In this document: one piece after another, positions 1,021 to 17,794 of the stretch
Layout: every line of letters starts with the position of its first letter
How positions within the stretch are numbered: the stretch's first letter is position 1
From: a virus
Lineage: Duplodnaviria > Heunggongvirae > Uroviricota > Caudoviricetes
Virus record (IMG/VR): IMGVR_UViG_2563366800_000003
Strand: one strand, 5' to 3'
DNA: 19,093 nt
The notes under the pieces: generated by a model
The model's database searches: none
Told to the model about the DNA's origin: nothing
What the model saw: the letters and a program-made list of their open reading frames with translations, nothing else
Made by a program: the position numbers and the translations under genes

Positions 1021-1066
1021 ATTCGTAATGCGAAGGTCGTAGGTTCGACTCCTATTATCGGCACCA
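1021..1066 (+). other. 46-nt 3' portion of tRNA-Thr(CGU) (thrW-type) without its 5' half; attachment-site core of the downstream integrative element
   Basis: ATTCGTAATGCGAAGGTCGTAGGTTCGACTCCTATTATCGGCACCA matches my recollection of the E. coli thrW 3' end (anticodon CGT, T-arm GGTTCGACTCC, acceptor TATCGGC + CCA). The preceding 30 nt do not form the matching 5' acceptor/D-arm (GCCGATA…), so this is not an intact tRNA gene. Confidence 0.7.
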
Positions 1067-1083
1067 TTCAAACATCTCCCCAA

Positions 1084-1165
1084 GTCTACTAAAGTCTTTC
1101 AAAACCCCTTATAATCCGCGTATTAAAGCCCCGTTCGTCTTTTGACGTCTACTAAAGTCCCTCAA
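1084..1165 (+). repeat. Two direct copies of GTCTACTAAAGTC(Y)(Y)TCAAAA (1084-1102 and 1147-1165) between the att core and int
   Basis: Seen directly in the sequence, 63 bp apart; the position fits accessory-factor or arm-type binding sites of an attP-derived region (inference). Confidence 0.45.
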
Positions 1166-1178
1166 AATCTACGGTCAG

Positions 1179-1231
1179 ATGGGGGTACTTATGGGGGTAT
1201 TTGCTGTTCGGTTTAGTGGAGGTACCCCCAA
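1179..1231. promoter_or_regulatory. Three TGGGGGTA motifs (two direct at 1180-1187 and 1192-1199, one inverted at 1223-1230) immediately upstream of int; candidate arm-type integrase binding sites
   Basis: Seen directly; a near-identical ATGGGGGTACTT(T)TGGGGGTAT block recurs at 17693-17718 near the proposed right end. A GGAGG Shine-Dalgarno (1218-1222) for int lies within this region. Confidence 0.45.
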
Positions 1232-2446
1232 GTGAAACTCAATGCCCGTCAAATAGACACAGCCAAGCCAAAAGAGAAGGCTTACAAGCTGGCCGATGGT
1301 GGCGGTTTGTATCTCTTGGTAAAACCTAATGGAGGTAAATACTGGCGACTTAAATATCGTGTAGCTGGTAAAGAGAAGCTATTGGCACTAGGTGTGTATC
1401 CTGAGGTTACTCTAGCCGATGCTCGGGCAAAACGTGAAGATGCGAAAAGAGGTATCGCTGGTGGTATCGATCCGATGGAAGCGAAACGAGAGGAAAAGAT
1501 TGCCCGGGAAACGCAGTTAAACAACACCTTCAAAGATATTGCCCTTGAGTGGCACAGCAGCAAATTAAAAAAATGGTCTGCTGGTTATGCTTCAGACATC
1601 CTCGAAGCCTTCAACAAAGATGTGTTCCCTTACATTGGCAAAAAACCAATCGCCGAAATCAAACCACTTGAACTTCTGAATGTGCTGCGGCGCATCGAGG
1701 GGCGCGGTGCTACAGAAAAAGCCAAAAAAGTGAGGCAGCGGTGCGGGGAAGTTTTCCGCTATGCAATAGTCACTGGTCGCGCAGAGTATAACCCTGCACC
1801 AGACCTTACTAGCGCGATGCAAGGCCATGAATCTAATCATTACCCTTTCCTTACAGCCAAAGAATTACCTGATTTTTTCAAGGCATTGTCCAGTTACTCA
1901 GGAAGCGCATTGGTTGTTATGGCGGCTCGTCTACTGATTATCACCGGCTTGCGGACTGGCGAACTACGTGGCGCATTATGGGATGAAATTGATTTCAACA
2001 AGGCTATCTGGGAGATACCCGCTTCACGTATGAAAATGCGGCGGCCTCATATTGTGCCATTGTCTGAGCAGGCTCTTTCGCTTATTGGGAAGATTAGAGA
2101 AATAACAGGCAATTACCCTCTTATGTTTCCCGGGCGCAATGATCCAAGGAAAACAATGAGCGAGGCCAGCATAAACCAAGTGTTTAAGCGCATTGGCTAC
2201 GCTGGACGTGTAACTGGTCATGGGTTCCGGCACACTATGAGTACGATTTTGCATGAGCAGGGCTATAACACCGCGTGGATAGAAACGCAGCTCGCTCACG
2301 TTGATAAGAACTCAATTCGTGGCACATACAACCATGCGCAATATCTGGATGGAAGGCGGGAGATGCTTCAATGGTATGCCGACTATATGGATTCTCTCGA
2401 GCATGGCGGAAATGTGGTGCATATGGTGTTTGAAAAACACGCATGA
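1232..2446 (+). CDS. int: P4-family tyrosine integrase (site-specific recombinase, phage integrase family)
   Basis: 404-aa ORF with GTG start 9 nt after GGAGG; N-terminal arm-binding-type region (LNARQIDTAKPKEKAYKLADGGGLYLLVKPNGGKYWRLKYR), catalytic-domain signatures HGFRHT and C-terminal RGTYNHAQYLDGRREMLQWYADYM typical of CP4-57 IntA/P4 Int relatives; sits directly next to a tRNA 3' fragment. Confidence 0.9.
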   Translation: MKLNARQIDTAKPKEKAYKLADGGGLYLLVKPNGGKYWRLKYRVAGKEKLLALGVYPEVTLADARAKREDAKRGIAGGIDPMEAKREEKIARETQLNNTFKDIALEWHSSKLKKWSAGYASDILEAFNKDVFPYIGKKPIAEIKPLELLNVLRRIEGRGATEKAKKVRQRCGEVFRYAIVTGRAEYNPAPDLTSAMQGHESNHYPFLTAKELPDFFKALSSYSGSALVVMAARLLIITGLRTGELRGALWDEIDFNKAIWEIPASRMKMRRPHIVPLSEQALSLIGKIREITGNYPLMFPGRNDPRKTMSEASINQVFKRIGYAGRVTGHGFRHTMSTILHEQGYNTAWIETQLAHVDKNSIRGTYNHAQYLDGRREMLQWYADYMDSLEHGGNVVHMVFEKHA

Positions 2447-2716
2447 AACAACTGGACAAGTATACAGAGGTTTACTAAAGTATAGGGGAGTAGATTGATA
2501 AAAACTCACAGAGGATTGCTATTTAACAGTTAGCCCTGGAGAAGGGCAATCGCTCTTTTATAAACGAAGGTGTATTGAGCCTTCTACGTCGCTGACAAAG
2601 CGGAATGTTCTTTAAAACTACTGGATGTCACGCCTAATAGCGTGATCCTGCCGAAATGCAGGGTAGCTCTACCCTTGTGGAGCAAACAAACCAAAACAAT
2701 CTGACTATCTTTTATA

Positions 2717-2751
2717 AAAGACCGCAATATGTTTTTCATATTGTGGTCTTT
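2717..2751. promoter_or_regulatory. Imperfect 15-bp inverted repeat (AAAGACCGCAATATG-TTTTT-CATATTGTGGTCTTT) in the AT-rich int-alpA intergenic region; candidate operator or terminator
   Basis: Seen directly; one mismatch in the stem; lies ~90 bp upstream of the alpA start. Confidence 0.3.
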
Positions 2752-2837
2752 GGCGTATTCGGCATTTGACGCAAATAAAACTCTCGCCATTCGTTGCAGG
2801 AGGGGGTTATTGCGTCATTAGTACAGGATATTAATAA

Positions 2838-16150: not shown

Positions 16151-16374
16151 CAATCGGTGAGGAAATAGCGGCGACCTGAATGGTCAAAATCACAACGCAG
16201 CTATCCCCGTAAGCAGCGCTTAACGGAATAGCAGTAACCTGAATCCAGTGAGGAGGGGGTAGTCAAATCTCTACAGCCCTGACTATCCGGGACTGCCCGC
16301 CCCATCGTTTTTTTATACCCGCGAAAAATGAAATTTAATCCGGGCGTGTTTCATCCTTCCAGAGGGTATGACGT

Positions 16375-16560
16375 ATGACACCACGCGAAATAGCCTTATT
16401 GACCATCGCCAAACTTGAGCACGGAGGCCACCAGCTTACACAGGCAGATCAACGGGAGATAGAACGATCAGTTAATGCCGATATAGCCCGGCGCGACAGG
16501 TTCCGCGAAATGATGCGAGCACCTGCCTACCAGTGGAAGAAGCCAGCGCCGCGCAGGTAG
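16375..16560 (+). CDS. Small hypothetical protein (61 aa)
   Basis: ORF with GAGGG ~9 nt upstream; basic C-terminus; no family recognised. Confidence 0.4.
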   Translation: MTPREIALLTIAKLEHGGHQLTQADQREIERSVNADIARRDRFREMMRAPAYQWKKPAPRR

Positions 16561-16680
16561 ATATGGGATTATTCCACATGTAACTTATGCGTATTAAGCA
16601 AATTTCCTTTATTCACCTTTACAGAATTGTGAGTACGTCAGTATCGTTATCCTTCCGATTCGCATTTATTCAGGATTTGC

Positions 16681-17223
16681 ATGTACCAGCTAAAGATAAC
16701 CATCCGAGACAGCAAACCACCTATATGGCGGCGTGTGCTGGTTCCAGAGCAAATCCCCTTTAGTAAACTTCATGCCGTGATCCAGTTAGCTTTTGGCTGG
16801 AATGACGAACACCTGTATATGTTCGAGAAAGGGCGTAAAGGTGATCCAGGTAGCGAGTATCGCGTATGGGGTGAGGATGAAAGCATGGGTAACGCGGCAA
16901 TCACGCCACTATGGGCGGCGCTCCAGAATGAGGGTGACAAGCTGGTTTACACGTATGACTTTGGCGACTGGTGGGATTGCGTCATTGTGCTGGAGAAGCA
17001 AACACACGATACGAGTAATCAGCCCATTAGCTGCCTGCGTGGGAAAGGCACCACCCCGGCGGAAAACTCAGGCGGCTTGCATGGTTACAATGAATTGCTA
17101 TTACAGGCCAGAGAGTCTGATAATCCTGAGCAGGCCGAGATCCACAATTTCCTGATGCTGGATATTGAACGCCGGGTTTACGACCTGAGCCGCATCAACG
17201 ACAGATTGCAGGCTATTAACTGA
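16681..17223 (+). CDS. Plasmid pRiA4b ORF-3-like family protein
   Basis: 180-aa ORF starting MYQLKITIRDSKPPIWRRVLVPEQIPFSKLHAVIQLAFGWNDEHLYMF, the characteristic N-terminal pattern of this family (recalled, not searched). Confidence 0.65.
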   Translation: MYQLKITIRDSKPPIWRRVLVPEQIPFSKLHAVIQLAFGWNDEHLYMFEKGRKGDPGSEYRVWGEDESMGNAAITPLWAALQNEGDKLVYTYDFGDWWDCVIVLEKQTHDTSNQPISCLRGKGTTPAENSGGLHGYNELLLQARESDNPEQAEIHNFLMLDIERRVYDLSRINDRLQAIN

Positions 17224-17575
17224 CCCGCATGTATTCACCTGATATTGCGTTGTCAGCGCCGCCAGTATCGCGCATAACAGCGCACTGACCGGGTAAACCG
17301 TAGCGCACGACCGTTGCGTTAGTATCACCGCCGCGCCGTATCTGGCGCGATTCATACACTGTCACCCGCTCAAGCAGTCCACCAGCAACCATGCTTTCCA
17401 GTGTGCGCCGGGTTGATTCGAGCTGGTGACGCTTATCGAACGACACCATGCCATGAAGCAGGTAGGCCACACCCGACACATCGAACGGCGGCGCACCAAT
17501 CTCACCAGTCACCCATTCGAGGTTATCCGGTTCAAAGTAGCTAAGTATCTCTTTTTTGCGACTGGTCATTCTCAT
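17216..17575 (-). CDS. Hypothetical protein (119 aa), convergent with and overlapping the 3' end of the pRiA4b ORF-3-like gene by 8 nt
   Basis: ORF with AAGGA upstream; no family recognised. Confidence 0.55.
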   Translation of the reverse strand: MRMTSRKKEILSYFEPDNLEWVTGEIGAPPFDVSGVAYLLHGMVSFDKRHQLESTRRTLESMVAGGLLERVTVYESRQIRRGGDTNATVVRYGLPGQCAVMRDTGGADNAISGEYMRVS

Positions 17576-17692
17576 GGCTGGCTGATTCCTTATTGTGGGA
17601 TAGCACTATCATACAATAAGTGGGTTAAAGGGAGAGCGTTACCGCCTGATATGCTGTATGAATAACAACCAAATTTCAGGGGCGGAAAAAGA

Positions 17693-17718
17693 TATGGGGG
17701 TACTTTTGGGGGTATCTA
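17693..17718. promoter_or_regulatory. ATGGGGGTACTTTTGGGGGTAT: right-hand copy of the paired TGGGGGTA motif seen upstream of int
   Basis: 22 of 23 positions identical to 1179-1200; ~60 bp from the degenerate att core copy. Confidence 0.45.
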
Positions 17719-17776
17719 TAAAAAATGAACAATAAAAAAGGCAACAAAAACAAAGCTTATCGCCTATGTGTATTGT

Positions 17777-17794
17777 TCCTATTATCGCACCATT
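17777..17794 (+). other. Degenerate copy of the tRNA-Thr 3' end (TCCTATTATCG-CACCATT); candidate right attachment-site remnant
   Basis: 18 nt matching 1048-1066 with a single-base deletion; same orientation as the left copy. Confidence 0.35.

What the first reader, a model, noticed from the sequence alone, without database searches (positions are those of the whole stretch)
1021..17794. Predicted ~16.8-kb satellite/PICI-like integrative element bounded by tRNA-Thr-derived repeats
The content (P4-type int, alpA, antirepressor-like gene, primase-helicase with adjacent iterons, no recognisable capsid, terminase or tail genes) is the signature of a helper-dependent phage satellite rather than a full prophage. 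Boundaries are proposed from the 46-nt tRNA fragment on the left and an 18-nt degenerate copy plus a TGGGGGTA motif pair on the right. The right copy has an indel, so the right boundary is tentative.
Basis: inference. Interest (0 to 1): 0.55.

Follow-up and report, generated by a model that had tools for sequence, protein, structure and literature searches.

The report
Known-type phage satellite at thrW
The flagged region is a real, sharply bounded 16.7-kb phage satellite of the already described EcCIMP1 family, which parasitises P22-like phages; it also carries copies of those phages' DNA-packaging signal and two of their DNA-injection proteins, which may explain how the family is packaged.

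Summary
A discrete element lies at window 1060-17786, between a 19/18-nt repeat of the thrW 3' end (1050-1068 and 17777-17794). The reconstructed empty site occurs in 1579 of 5426 complete E. coli genomes.

It is a close variant of EcCIMP1, a PICI satellite shown experimentally to be excised and transduced by the P22-like phage Kapi1 (PMC11773190). Int, PerC and the PRiA4_ORF3 protein are 100% identical, primase 99.3% and AlpA 98.5%. The satellite reading is therefore supported, but the kind is already known.

Corrections:
- The 46-nt tRNA piece on the left is the attR of a separate upstream prophage with a P22-type att site.
- The element has no capsid, terminase or tail genes. It does encode full-length P22 gp20 and gp16 ejection proteins, in a cassette 94-96% identical to a P22-like prophage.

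New here, by inference only:
- A non-coding terS relic carries a 22-mer identical to the pac position of real P22-like phages.
- Related satellites in other genera carry arrays of such pac-like units.
- The "Ash" ORF overlaps isrK and C4 RNA genes.

Likely mechanism: pac-site mimicry, plus satellite-supplied ejection proteins.

The parts
1021..1066 (+). 3' 46 nt of tRNA-Thr (thrW), running from the anticodon loop to CCA. The 5' 30 nt are missing. This is the attR of a separate upstream prophage with a P22-type att site, not a boundary of this element.
   Evidence: ARAGORN finds no tRNA. The fragment is identical to the 3' part of intact thrW in L001. Window 896-1072 is 80% identical to P22 attP 21168-21344. 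Strain E8 has a lambdoid prophage upstream of the same junction.
1050..1068 (+). attL core: TCCTATTATCGGCACCATT. The published EcCIMP1 core is TCCTATTATC.
   Evidence: PMC11773190
1180..1230 (.). Three TGGGGGTA copies, two direct and one inverted, between the att core and the int start. Inferred to be arm-type integrase sites.
   Evidence: 5 copies in the window against 0.27 expected; the integrase has an Arm-DNA-bind_3 domain
1232..2446 (+). P4-family tyrosine integrase, 100% identical to the EcCIMP1 integrase.
2838..3041 (+). AlpA regulator, 98.5% identical to EcCIMP1 AlpA, which is required for excision and transfer of EcCIMP1.
   Evidence: PMC11773190
3041..3472 (+). 143-aa protein of unknown function, conserved in the family.
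3485..4318 (+). AntA/AntB-type antirepressor.
4311..4493 (+). DUF4222 protein, 60 aa.
4635..4750 (-). Non-coding relic of a P22-type small-terminase gene (terS). The 22-mer at 4720-4741 is GAAGGTTTTTGTGGAGTCACTA on the minus strand and lies at the position of the P22 pac site. Proposed packaging signal.
   Evidence: 85% identical to P22 nt 4-110, which include the annotated pac site at 4-25. The 22-mer is 22/22 identical to the terS of three P22-like phage contigs, and the surrounding 116 nt are 91% identical. Conserved in 6 related satellites. PWM score 41.0 against a shuffle maximum of 12.8.
4804..4828 (+). 25-mer TGAGTTTTCGGAGTCCATAAAAAAG, identical to nt 141-165 of the CUS-3-type terS gene. 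It is the conserved last unit of the repeat array across the family and lies just upstream of isrK.
4868..4945 (+). isrK-family small RNA.
   Evidence: Rfam RF01394, 67.8 bits against a gathering score of 50
5008..5095 (+). C4 antisense RNA. Its loop ATCCTTCAGA (5050-5059) is complementary at 9 of 10 positions to the ribosome-binding region of the next ORF (5131-5140).
   Evidence: Rfam RF01695, 79.9 bits against a gathering score of 45; complementarity read from the sequence
5149..5343 (+). Icd-like 64-aa ORF, 96.9% identical to the MP1 protein annotated as Icd-like.
5547..6814 (+). Four small conserved ORFs (64, 87, 73 and 200 aa) of unknown function, upstream of the primase.
6827..9583 (+). 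Primase-helicase (zinc ribbon, Toprim, DUF927), 99.3% identical to that of EcCIMP1.
9609..9721 (.). Putative replication origin: 3 direct GTTGGTTCA and 3 inverted TGAACCAAC iterons around an A+T-rich spacer.
10040..10072 (+). Terminator-like hairpin followed by a T run, just upstream of the ejection-protein operon.
10168..10341 (+). 57-aa ORF conserved in both cassette types. Function unknown.
10346..11782 (+). Full-length homologue of the P22 gp20 ejection protein.
   Evidence: Pfam Inj_translocase E=3.2e-82. phrog_917 E=6e-199 over the full length. 64-67% aa identity to phage gp20 proteins. dN/dS 0.08-0.17.
11782..13887 (+). Full-length homologue of the P22 gp16 ejection protein.
   Evidence: phrog_770 E=1.7e-163. 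66% identity to phages N7 and HZ41, about 32% to P22-like phages L, ST64T and Sf6. dN/dS 0.09-0.21.
13906..14325 (-). Small hydrophobic protein, read from its sequence as a likely membrane protein (109-139 aa depending on the start codon). It occupies the place and strand that sieA has in P22. It has no sequence similarity to SieA.
14405..14432 (+). Second, weaker pac-like unit GAAGATTTTTCTGATATCACTGCCACAG, with related GTACGCGCG-type repeats nearby (14370-14760).
   Evidence: PWM score 21.2 against a shuffle maximum of 12.8. Present at the same place in all 6 E. coli relatives. Sequence.
14780..15536 (-). Variable cargo of two small ORFs (73 and 151 aa) of unknown function. Other strains hold an Abi-family gene or other hypothetical genes at this locus.
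15796..16077 (+). PerC-family regulator, 100% identical to EcCIMP1_025, which silenced LEE1 expression in Citrobacter rodentium.
   Evidence: PMC11773190
16375..16560 (+). 61-aa conserved ORF.
16681..17223 (+). PRiA4_ORF3-family protein.
17216..17575 (-). 119-aa conserved ORF of unknown function.
17695..17714 (+). Pair of TGGGGGTA repeats near the right end. Inferred arm-type integrase sites.
17777..17794 (+). attR core: TCCTATTATCG-CACCATT. It lacks one G relative to attL.

Best explanation
The region is an integrated phage satellite of the PICI type, a close variant of EcCIMP1, that exploits P22-like podoviruses.

Shown by comparison:
- It is a discrete 16.7-kb unit inserted at the 3' end of thrW.
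- It shares the EcCIMP1 integrase, AlpA, antirepressor, primase-helicase with origin, PerC and right end.

Shown experimentally for EcCIMP1 only:
- The helper phage switches on alpA.
- Int and AlpA are each required for excision and circularisation.
- The element is then transduced by the helper.

Inferred here:
1. Replication starts at the iterons just after the primase gene.
2. A C4 antisense RNA blocks translation of the Icd-like ORF, and so probably keeps the downstream replication operon silent, as in P1 immI and P4 immunity.
3. The element has no terminase. It is packaged by the helper's own terminase because it carries copies of the helper pac signal. These are a relic of a P22-type terS gene with a 22-mer identical to that of real phages, a CUS-3-type terS 25-mer, and a weaker unit after the ejection genes. 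Headful packaging would load about 2.5 copies per P22-sized head.
4. The satellite's own gp20 and gp16 are built into those particles and form part of the DNA-delivery conduit. These two proteins are the ones in which P22 mutations that escape SieA exclusion map. A plausible benefit is entry into cells that already hold a P22-like prophage.

The cassette, the small hydrophobic protein in the sieA position and the cargo downstream are exchangeable modules.
For: Identity with EcCIMP1:
- DNA identity is 95.4% (1021-6812), 98.4% (6827-10316) and 98.7% (15638-17794).
- Protein identities are Int 100%, AlpA 98.5%, AntA 98.6%, primase 99.3% and PerC 100%.
- The EcCIMP1 experiments are in PMC11773190.

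Boundaries and empty site.

Origin and regulatory RNAs.

Absence of capsid, terminase and tail genes.

pac mimicry:
- The P22 pac site is annotated at nt 4-25 inside gene 3 and is described as a 22-bp site in terS (PMC9611059).
- Window 4635-4741 is 85% identical to P22 nt 4-110.
- The 22-mer is identical in three phage contigs that carry TerS, TerL and, in two of them, portal homologues.
- Other unit variants found in satellites are identical to the pac position of two further P22-like phages, L106 and L111.
- Units occur in 21 of 72 family loci and not at all in shuffles of the same loci. Arrays reach 10 units in Leclercia and 3-5 in Serratia, Kosakonia and Limnobaculum.

Ejection cassette:
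- It is 94-96% identical in DNA to gp20-gp16 and the small downstream ORF of a complete P22-like prophage.
- It is under purifying selection, dN/dS 0.08-0.21.
- SieA escape mutations map to gp16 and gp20 (PMC10883804).
Against: - Nothing was tested on this copy. Its helper is unknown and its source genome is not identified.
- The only proven helper, Kapi1, has a different TerS with no similarity to either relic. EcCIMP1 transduction by Kapi1 was very low. This fits a mismatched pac signal but does not prove pac function.
- The PWM for pac-like units was built partly from satellite units, so the family counts are partly circular.
- Most relatives in other genera show no ejection genes with my panel. 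The cassette is therefore a lineage-specific accessory, not a family hallmark.
- The 25-mer lies next to the likely isrK promoter and could be conserved for that reason.
- In strain EPSSH018 the co-resident P22-like prophage has the canonical P22 pac site, not the satellite's variant.
Confidence: 0.85

Rival explanations
1. The element is a defective or domesticated island. It keeps satellite genes but is no longer mobilised, and the phage-derived pieces are passive leftovers.
For: SatelliteFinder-type scoring would class EcCIMP1 as 'Type C', meaning key modules are missing. EcCIMP1 transfer is very inefficient. The attL of this copy abuts a truncated tRNA and an upstream prophage with IS fragments.
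Against: The integrase is 100% identical to the functional EcCIMP1 integrase, and both att cores are identical to those of MP1. All main ORFs are intact. Purifying selection acts on primase and ejection genes. The backbone is present at 99% identity or more in 357 genomes, with different right-hand neighbours.
Confidence: 0.12
2. The terS relic, the 25-mer and the repeat arrays are not packaging signals. They are recombination scars, or binding sites or transcript elements of the satellite's own regulation (the isrK/C4 leader). Packaging would then work some other way, or only by generalised transduction.
For: The units lie in the leader of the isrK-C4-icd region, and the 25-mer adjoins a promoter-like TTGCCG-N17-TATGGT. 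Kapi1 transduces EcCIMP1 without sharing these sequences. In-vitro binding of P22 TerS to pac DNA has never been shown (PMC9611059).
Against: Three different unit variants are identical over 22 nt to the pac position of three different real phage terS genes. In some relatives the arrays lie far from isrK, downstream of the ejection genes. The family has no terminase gene of its own.
Confidence: 0.3
3. It is the remnant of a P22-like prophage that has lost most of its genome.
For: A 4-kb block of gp20, gp16 and a sieA-position ORF is 94-96% identical to a P22-like prophage, and terS fragments are present.
Against: The integrase, AlpA, primase-helicase with iterons, C4/isrK region and att site are not those of P22-like phages. 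Relatives in many genera keep the same backbone with no phage block. The phage block is an insert between the origin and the PerC region.
Confidence: 0.02
4. It is a P4-like satellite.
For: It has a P4-family integrase, AlpA, a large primase-helicase and a C4/CI-type RNA.
Against: No match to a capsid-size or head-decoration function, as would be expected for sid, psu or delta homologues, appeared in the Pfam or PHROG scans. The virion genes it carries belong to podoviruses, not to P2.
Confidence: 0.03

Closest known systems
EcCIMP1, the PICI of E. coli MP1 (Pick, Stadel and Raivio, ISME J 2025; PMC11773190; GenBank OR778291)
   Same: Both insert at thrW with the same TCCTATTATC core. Int, PerC and the PRiA4_ORF3 protein are identical. 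AlpA, AntA and primase are 98-99% identical. The iterons and the terS relic with isrK and C4 are also shared.
   Different: This element is 16.7 kb against 20.0 kb. The ejection cassette is replaced: gp20 plus gp16 of another type, instead of gp14, gp7, gp20 and a transglycosylase-domain protein. The second AlpA (alpA_1, the Xis-like gene), two small ORFs before the primase and the 232-aa ORF are absent. The cargo differs.
Classical Gram-negative PICIs (EcCICFT073, EcCIEDL933; Fillol-Salom et al. 2018 and 2019; PMC6092414, PMC6739421)
   Same: The order int - alpA - pri/rep with adjacent iterons, the size class, tRNA-end integration, and the lack of capsid and lysis genes.
   Different: Those elements use cos sites and Rpp to redirect lambdoid cos phages. 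Here there is no Rpp or terminase gene; instead there are pac-like units and podovirus ejection proteins. The regulatory region holds C4 and isrK RNAs.
cos-type SaPIs such as SaPIbov5
   Same: The satellite carries a copy of the helper's packaging signal instead of its own small terminase. This comparison rests on my own knowledge of SaPIbov5 and on the summary in PMC8569155.
   Different: Here the signal is a pac (headful) signal rather than cos. It is taken from inside the helper's terS gene and is present as several variant units.
P22-like phage virion module: genes 14-7-20-16 and the sieA locus (Leavitt et al., mBio 2024; PMC10883804)
   Same: gp20 and gp16 are full-length homologues. [quoted passage not shown]
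   Different: gp14, gp7 and all other virion genes are missing. The small hydrophobic protein has no SieA similarity and lacks the FxRYPxEAxxFNK motif.
P1 immI (c4-icd-ant) and the P4 CI RNA immunity system
   Same: A C4-family RNA lies immediately upstream of an Icd-like ORF, and its loop is complementary to that ORF's ribosome-binding site.
   Different: Here the antirepressor gene lies upstream rather than downstream, and the operon continues into a primase-helicase. The function is untested.

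Membership tests
PICI (Gram-negative type, criteria of Fillol-Salom et al. 2018) | Integrase at one end and a specific att site with flanking direct repeats | tested here: met
   int at 1232-2446; repeats at 1050-1068 and 17777-17794; empty site found in 1579 genomes
PICI (Gram-negative type, criteria of Fillol-Salom et al. 2018) | alpA downstream of int | tested here: met
   Pfam Phage_AlpA E=7.5e-20 at 2838-3041
PICI (Gram-negative type, criteria of Fillol-Salom et al. 2018) | Primase/replication gene with an adjacent iteron origin | tested here: met
PICI (Gram-negative type, criteria of Fillol-Salom et al. 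2018) | Size of about 10-20 kb and no phage capsid, tail or lysis genes | tested here: met
   16,727 bp. Pfam and PHROG scans found none. Caveat: two ejection-protein genes are present.
PICI (Gram-negative type, criteria of Fillol-Salom et al. 2018) | Own packaging-redirection gene (Rpp, TerS or a capsid-size gene) | tested here: not met
   No such family matched. pac-like DNA units are present instead.
PICI (Gram-negative type, criteria of Fillol-Salom et al. 2018) | Helper-dependent induction, excision and transfer | not testable with these tools
   Shown for EcCIMP1 with phage Kapi1 (PMC11773190), not for this copy.
EcCIMP1 lineage | thrW insertion with the TCCTATTATC core and a near-identical int-to-primase backbone and right end | tested here: met
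EcCIMP1 lineage | Same module downstream of the primase (gp14, gp7, gp20, transglycosylase-domain protein) and the second alpA_1 | tested here: not met
   No DNA similarity over 10317-14330. gp20 is 26% identical over the N-terminal part only. alpA_1 is absent.
P4-like satellites | sid, psu, delta and epsilon genes alongside alpha, alpA and int | tested here: not met
   No match to a capsid-size or head-decoration function in Pfam or PHROGs.
Capsid-forming PICI (cfPICI) | Own capsid, portal, protease, head-tail connector and terminase genes | tested here: not met
P22-like prophage (Lederbergvirus) | Terminase, portal, scaffold, coat, tailspike, lysis and lambdoid early regions | tested here: not met
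   Only gp20 and gp16 homologues and a 116-nt terS relic are present.
SieA superinfection-exclusion proteins (types A-C) | Sequence similarity to SieA and the FxRYPxEAxxFNK motif | tested here: not met
   BLASTP E=0.94 against P22 SieA. The motif is absent from the 139-aa sequence. Only position and strand are shared.

The most novel reading that the evidence does not exclude
EcCIMP1-type satellites may be packaged by pac-site mimicry. They would hold a small 'library' of pac units copied from the terS genes of different P22-like phages, so that helpers with different small terminases could each package them. The E. coli lineage may also swap in cassettes of the ejection proteins gp20 and gp16, the proteins in which P22 SieA-escape mutations map. 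That would equip its transducing particles for DNA delivery, possibly into lysogens that exclude the helper. Neither feature is mentioned in the EcCIMP1 paper, which calls the packaging mechanism unknown.
Probability: 0.45. Interest if true: 0.65.

Novelty: new member of a known kind. Interest (0 to 1): 0.42.

Why it matters
The element itself is ordinary. Its primase backbone is in 360 of 5426 complete E. coli genomes, and the family was characterised in 2025.

The value lies in what the comparison suggests. The published work left open how this family is packaged and why it affects superinfection. Here there are precise DNA sites (4720-4741, 4804-4828, 14405-14432) and two genes (10346-13887) whose mutation would test a concrete mechanism.

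If pac-unit arrays work as proposed, they would be a simple, terminase-free route by which satellites hijack headful-packaging phages. They would also be a sequence signature for finding satellites that current finders score as 'incomplete'. In addition, they would help define pac sites for TerS types where none is known.

Tried and rejected
- NCBIfam gave no hit for the ejection proteins or the unknown ORFs.
- PADLOC found no known defence system in the cargo. The only hit was a weak PDC-S22 match in the C-terminal half of AntA.
- SieA homology of the 139-aa hydrophobic protein was rejected.
- I looked for a helper-type late promoter or Q-utilisation region upstream of the ejection genes by comparing 9584-10345 with four P22-like genomes. 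Only chance-level short matches appeared, and no sigma-70 consensus promoter was found.
- I looked for similarity between EcCIMP1 or the window and the terS gene of Kapi1. There is none.
- The idea that the element continues into ykfI/yafW was rejected by strains MB10 and Ec-050.
- The idea that structural genes to the left belong to this unit was rejected. They belong to a separate prophage, divided from the element by its own attR.
- A literature search found no prior description of pac mimicry or ejection proteins in PICIs within the held library.
- Pfam found nothing in the Icd-like ORF or in the 5' third of the 'Ash' ORF.

Full report
**1. What is in the window**

ARAGORN finds no intact tRNA. 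Positions 1021-1066 are the last 46 nt of thrW, identical to the 3' part of the intact gene in other strains.

From 1232 onwards the ORFs, Pfam and PHROG scans give the following:
- a P4-family tyrosine integrase;
- AlpA;
- a 143-aa unknown protein;
- an AntA antirepressor;
- a DUF4222 protein;
- a long 'Ash family' ORF;
- four small ORFs;
- a 918-aa primase-helicase (zinc ribbon, Toprim, DUF927);
- a 57-aa ORF;
- a 478-aa and a 701-aa protein;
- a small hydrophobic protein on the minus strand;
- two small minus-strand ORFs;
- PerC, a 61-aa ORF, a PRiA4_ORF3 protein and a 119-aa minus-strand ORF.

Three direct and three inverted 9-nt iterons lie 26-136 nt after the primase stop codon. TGGGGGTA occurs five times against 0.27 expected: three copies next to attL and two next to attR. 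The right end carries TCCTATTATCG-CACCATT (17777-17794). The left end carries TCCTATTATCGGCACCATT (1050-1068).

**2. Boundaries**

A megablast against 5426 complete E. coli genomes finds 47 genomes holding at least 80% of the window. In the 30 genomes listed, similarity mostly starts at 1021 and stops at 17770-17810, or continues into the CP4-6-like island.

- In strains MB10 and Ec-050 the element lies between intact thrW and the core genes yagP'/paoD.
- In strain A29 and in the window, the same right end is followed by the CP4-6-like island (ykfI, yafW, ykfH).
- Strains F8 and MP1 have other islands there.
- I joined thrW to the MB10 right flank by hand. That sequence is contiguous, at up to 100% identity, in 1579 of 5426 genomes, including E. 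coli C and a BL21 derivative.

The toxin-antitoxin genes are therefore not part of the unit.

The one-G deletion in the right repeat is present in all six relatives. It looks like a feature of the element's attP rather than decay. If so, strand exchange would occur in CACCATT. That last point is inference.

**3. The 46-nt fragment**

Window 211-1100 is 99.8% identical to a junction in strain E8. There, a complete lambdoid prophage (capsid, tail, J, tail fibres) ends just before the 46-nt fragment, and an EcCIMP1-like element follows.

Window 896-1072 is 80% identical to the P22 attP region, whose annotated core lies inside the same thrW segment.

The fragment is therefore the attR of a separate prophage with a P22-type att site, integrated in the anticodon loop of thrW. 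This window shows a tandem array: upstream prophage end, broken by an IS1 (1-209) and an IS3-family fragment, then the satellite, then the CP4-6-like island.

**4. Identity**

A literature search led to EcCIMP1 (PMC11773190). EcCIMP1 is a 19,963-bp PICI at tRNA-Thr between proA and yagU in E. coli MP1, with TCCTATTATC repeats.
- It circularises only when the P22-like prophage Kapi1 is present, and more so on induction.
- It needs int and alpA for excision.
- Kapi1 transduces it at low frequency.
- It adds to superinfection immunity against Kapi1.
- Its PerC homologue silences LEE1.

MP1 is in the genome collection. The window is 95.4% identical to it over 1021-6812, 98.4% over 6827-10316, 95.8% over 14331-14760 and 98.7% over 15638-17794. 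There is no similarity over 10317-14330 or 14760-15638.

Protein identities are Int 100%, AlpA 98.5%, AntA 98.6%, primase 99.3%, and PerC, the 61-aa ORF and PRiA4_ORF3 all 100%. The genes alpA_1, gp14, gp7, the transglycosylase-domain protein and three small ORFs of MP1 are absent.

By the paper's convention the element is window 1060-17786, or 16,727 bp. The primase gene is found at 80% coverage or more in 360 of 5426 genomes. Relatives with the same int, alpA, antA, icd and primase order occur across Enterobacterales.

**5. The ejection cassette**

- The 478-aa protein matches Pfam Inj_translocase (E=3.2e-82) and phrog_917 over its full length (E=6e-199). It is 64-67% identical to gp20 of phages phiv205-1, JEP4 and ST104.
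- The 701-aa protein matches phrog_770 (E=1.7e-163). It is 66% identical to gp16 of phages N7 and HZ41 and about 32% to P22-like phages such as L, ST64T and Sf6.
- Window 10336-14278 is 94-96% identical in DNA to the gp20-gp16-small-ORF block of a complete P22-like prophage at argW in strain Z0117EC0054.

The cassette was therefore exchanged recently with such phages.

Between satellites, dN/dS is 0.08-0.21 for these genes, similar to the primase. Their dS (0.01-0.25) is mostly several-fold higher than that of the primase (0.008-0.027). This fits functional genes that turn over by recombination. A species-representative Escherichia genome has a hybrid cassette: MP1-type gp14 and gp7 with window-type gp16.

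The small hydrophobic ORF after gp16 sits exactly where sieA sits in P22. It has no similarity to SieA.

Leavitt et al. showed that SieA blocks DNA injection and that escape mutations map to gp16 and gp20 (PMC10883804). Those are the two proteins this satellite carries. That link is suggestive only.

Most relatives in other genera lack detectable ejection genes. The cassette is therefore a lineage-specific module.

**6. Packaging signal**

A blastn against P22 unexpectedly matched window 4635-4741 (minus strand) to P22 nt 4-110 at 85% identity. That is inside gene 3 and includes the annotated 22-bp pac site (PMC9611059). No terS ORF exists in the element.

- The satellite 22-mer GAAGGTTTTTGTGGAGTCACTA differs from the P22 site at six positions.
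- It is identical to the same position in the terS of three P22-like phage contigs. Their TerS is 89.5% and their TerL 92% identical to those of P22, and the surrounding 116 nt are 91% identical.
- The relic is conserved in six satellites, including EcCIMP1 itself.
- A second piece, 4804-4828, is 25/25 identical to nt 141-165 of the CUS-3-type terS gene, which is also found in N7, phiv205-1 and the argW prophage.

In relatives from Serratia, Leclercia, Limnobaculum, Kosakonia, Enterobacter and other genera, the same region holds tandem arrays of 28-nt units. In some relatives the arrays lie after the ejection genes instead. The units have the form GAAGRYTTTTCNGRNNTCACTACGCGAG and end with the 25-mer-type unit.

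Two further unit variants are identical to the pac position of two other real P22-like phages, L106 and L111.

A weight matrix of these units finds them in 21 of 72 family loci and in none of the shuffled copies. In the window it finds 4741(-) with a score of 41 and 14405(+) with a score of 21, against a shuffle maximum of 12.8. The matrix was built partly from satellite units, so the counts are partly circular. The exact identities to phage terS genes are not circular.

Kapi1 has a different TerS with no match to either piece. This may explain the very low transfer reported for EcCIMP1. The EcCIMP1 paper does not mention pac, terS, C4 or isrK, and it states that the packaging mechanism is unclear.

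**7. Regulatory RNAs**

Rfam finds isrK (4868-4945, 67.8 bits) and C4 antisense RNA (5008-5095, 79.9 bits). Both lie inside the 'Ash' ORF. The Pfam Ash match (aa 124-232, nt 4856-5182) covers exactly these RNA genes, so that ORF is probably not a protein.

The C4 loop (5050-5059) is complementary at 9 of 10 positions to the ribosome-binding region of the Icd-like ORF (5131-5140; ATG at 5149). This is the arrangement known from P1 immI. A role in holding the replication operon silent is inferred.

**8. Verdict**

The kind is already described, and this is a new member with a different ejection cassette and cargo.

The mechanism I consider most likely has five steps:
1. helper-induced AlpA and Int excision (shown for EcCIMP1);
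2. primase and iteron replication (inferred);
3. C4 RNA control (inferred);
4. packaging through pac mimicry (inferred, about 0.5-0.6);
5. delivery with satellite-encoded gp20 and gp16 (inferred, about 0.4).

Rivals are a now-immobile island, repeats that are regulatory rather than packaging signals, a P22-like prophage remnant, and a P4-like satellite. The last two fail their membership tests.

Noticed in passing
window 1-209 and 308-673: The 3' end of an IS1 copy (1-209) and a truncated IS3-family transposase fragment (minus strand) sit in the right end of the upstream prophage. In strain E8 an AraC-family regulator gene occupies the place taken here by IS1.
   Followed up: partly
window 896-1066; L006 1-20890: The left flank is the end of a separate prophage with a P22-type attP. 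It is 80% identical to P22 nt 21168-21344. In strain E8 that prophage is a complete lambdoid siphovirus integrated in the thrW anticodon loop. thrW therefore carries a tandem array of three elements.
   Followed up: yes
window 4487-5554: The 355-aa 'Ash family protein' ORF annotated in RefSeq is probably spurious. Its Pfam Ash match coincides with the isrK and C4 RNA genes, and its 5' part holds the terS relics. The Pfam family PF10554 itself may be built on translated RNA genes.
   Followed up: partly
window about 4635-4755, minus strand: The terS relic stays open in the terS reading frame for about 39 codons ([38 protein letters not shown]). This could be chance, or it could be a TerS-derived peptide.
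   Followed up: no
window 18174-19093: ykfI (CbtA-type toxin), yafW (antitoxin) and ykfH of a CP4-6-like island start right after the satellite's attR. The 16 nt after CACCATT resemble the native thrW downstream sequence (AAAATCAAATTGTTAC against TAAATCAAGTAGTTAC). CP4-6 may therefore have its own att overlapping this spot.
   Followed up: partly
L004 22160-23052 and L028 32606-33473: A pair of a Panacea-domain protein and a partner protein occurs as cargo in the satellite of strain F8. It also occurs next to gene 16 in the P22-like prophage of strain EPSSH018. This points to cargo exchange between satellites and their helper type.
   Followed up: no
L028 (strain EPSSH018): This strain holds a satellite whose ejection cassette is 99.9% identical to the window's. 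It also holds a P22-like prophage with the canonical P22 pac 22-mer and quite different gp20 and gp16 (50% over the N-terminus only; first 56 aa only).
   Followed up: partly
L058 21747-22320 (Leclercia adecarboxylata): About ten pac-like 28-nt units lie within 570 nt downstream of an MP1-type ejection cassette. This is the largest array seen.
   Followed up: partly
window 14370-14760: A second repeat type, roughly TTTCGNGACNAGTACGCGCGCG, alternates with the pac-like units here and in other relatives. A similar GGTACGCGC lies about 20 nt upstream of the pac position in the terS of phage contig L106.
   Followed up: no
L001 14762-16577 (strain MB10): RefSeq marks the gp16-like gene of MB10 as a truncated pseudogene. 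Its 2106 nt align without gaps to the window's intact ORF, with one synonymous difference. This is probably an annotation artefact.
   Followed up: partly
L005 8213-8548 and 21284 (strain MP1): After the EcCIMP1 attR, MP1 has a second, decayed copy of the left end of a similar element: an Arm-DNA-binding pseudogene and the same sequence that follows attL. This suggests past tandem satellites at thrW.
   Followed up: no
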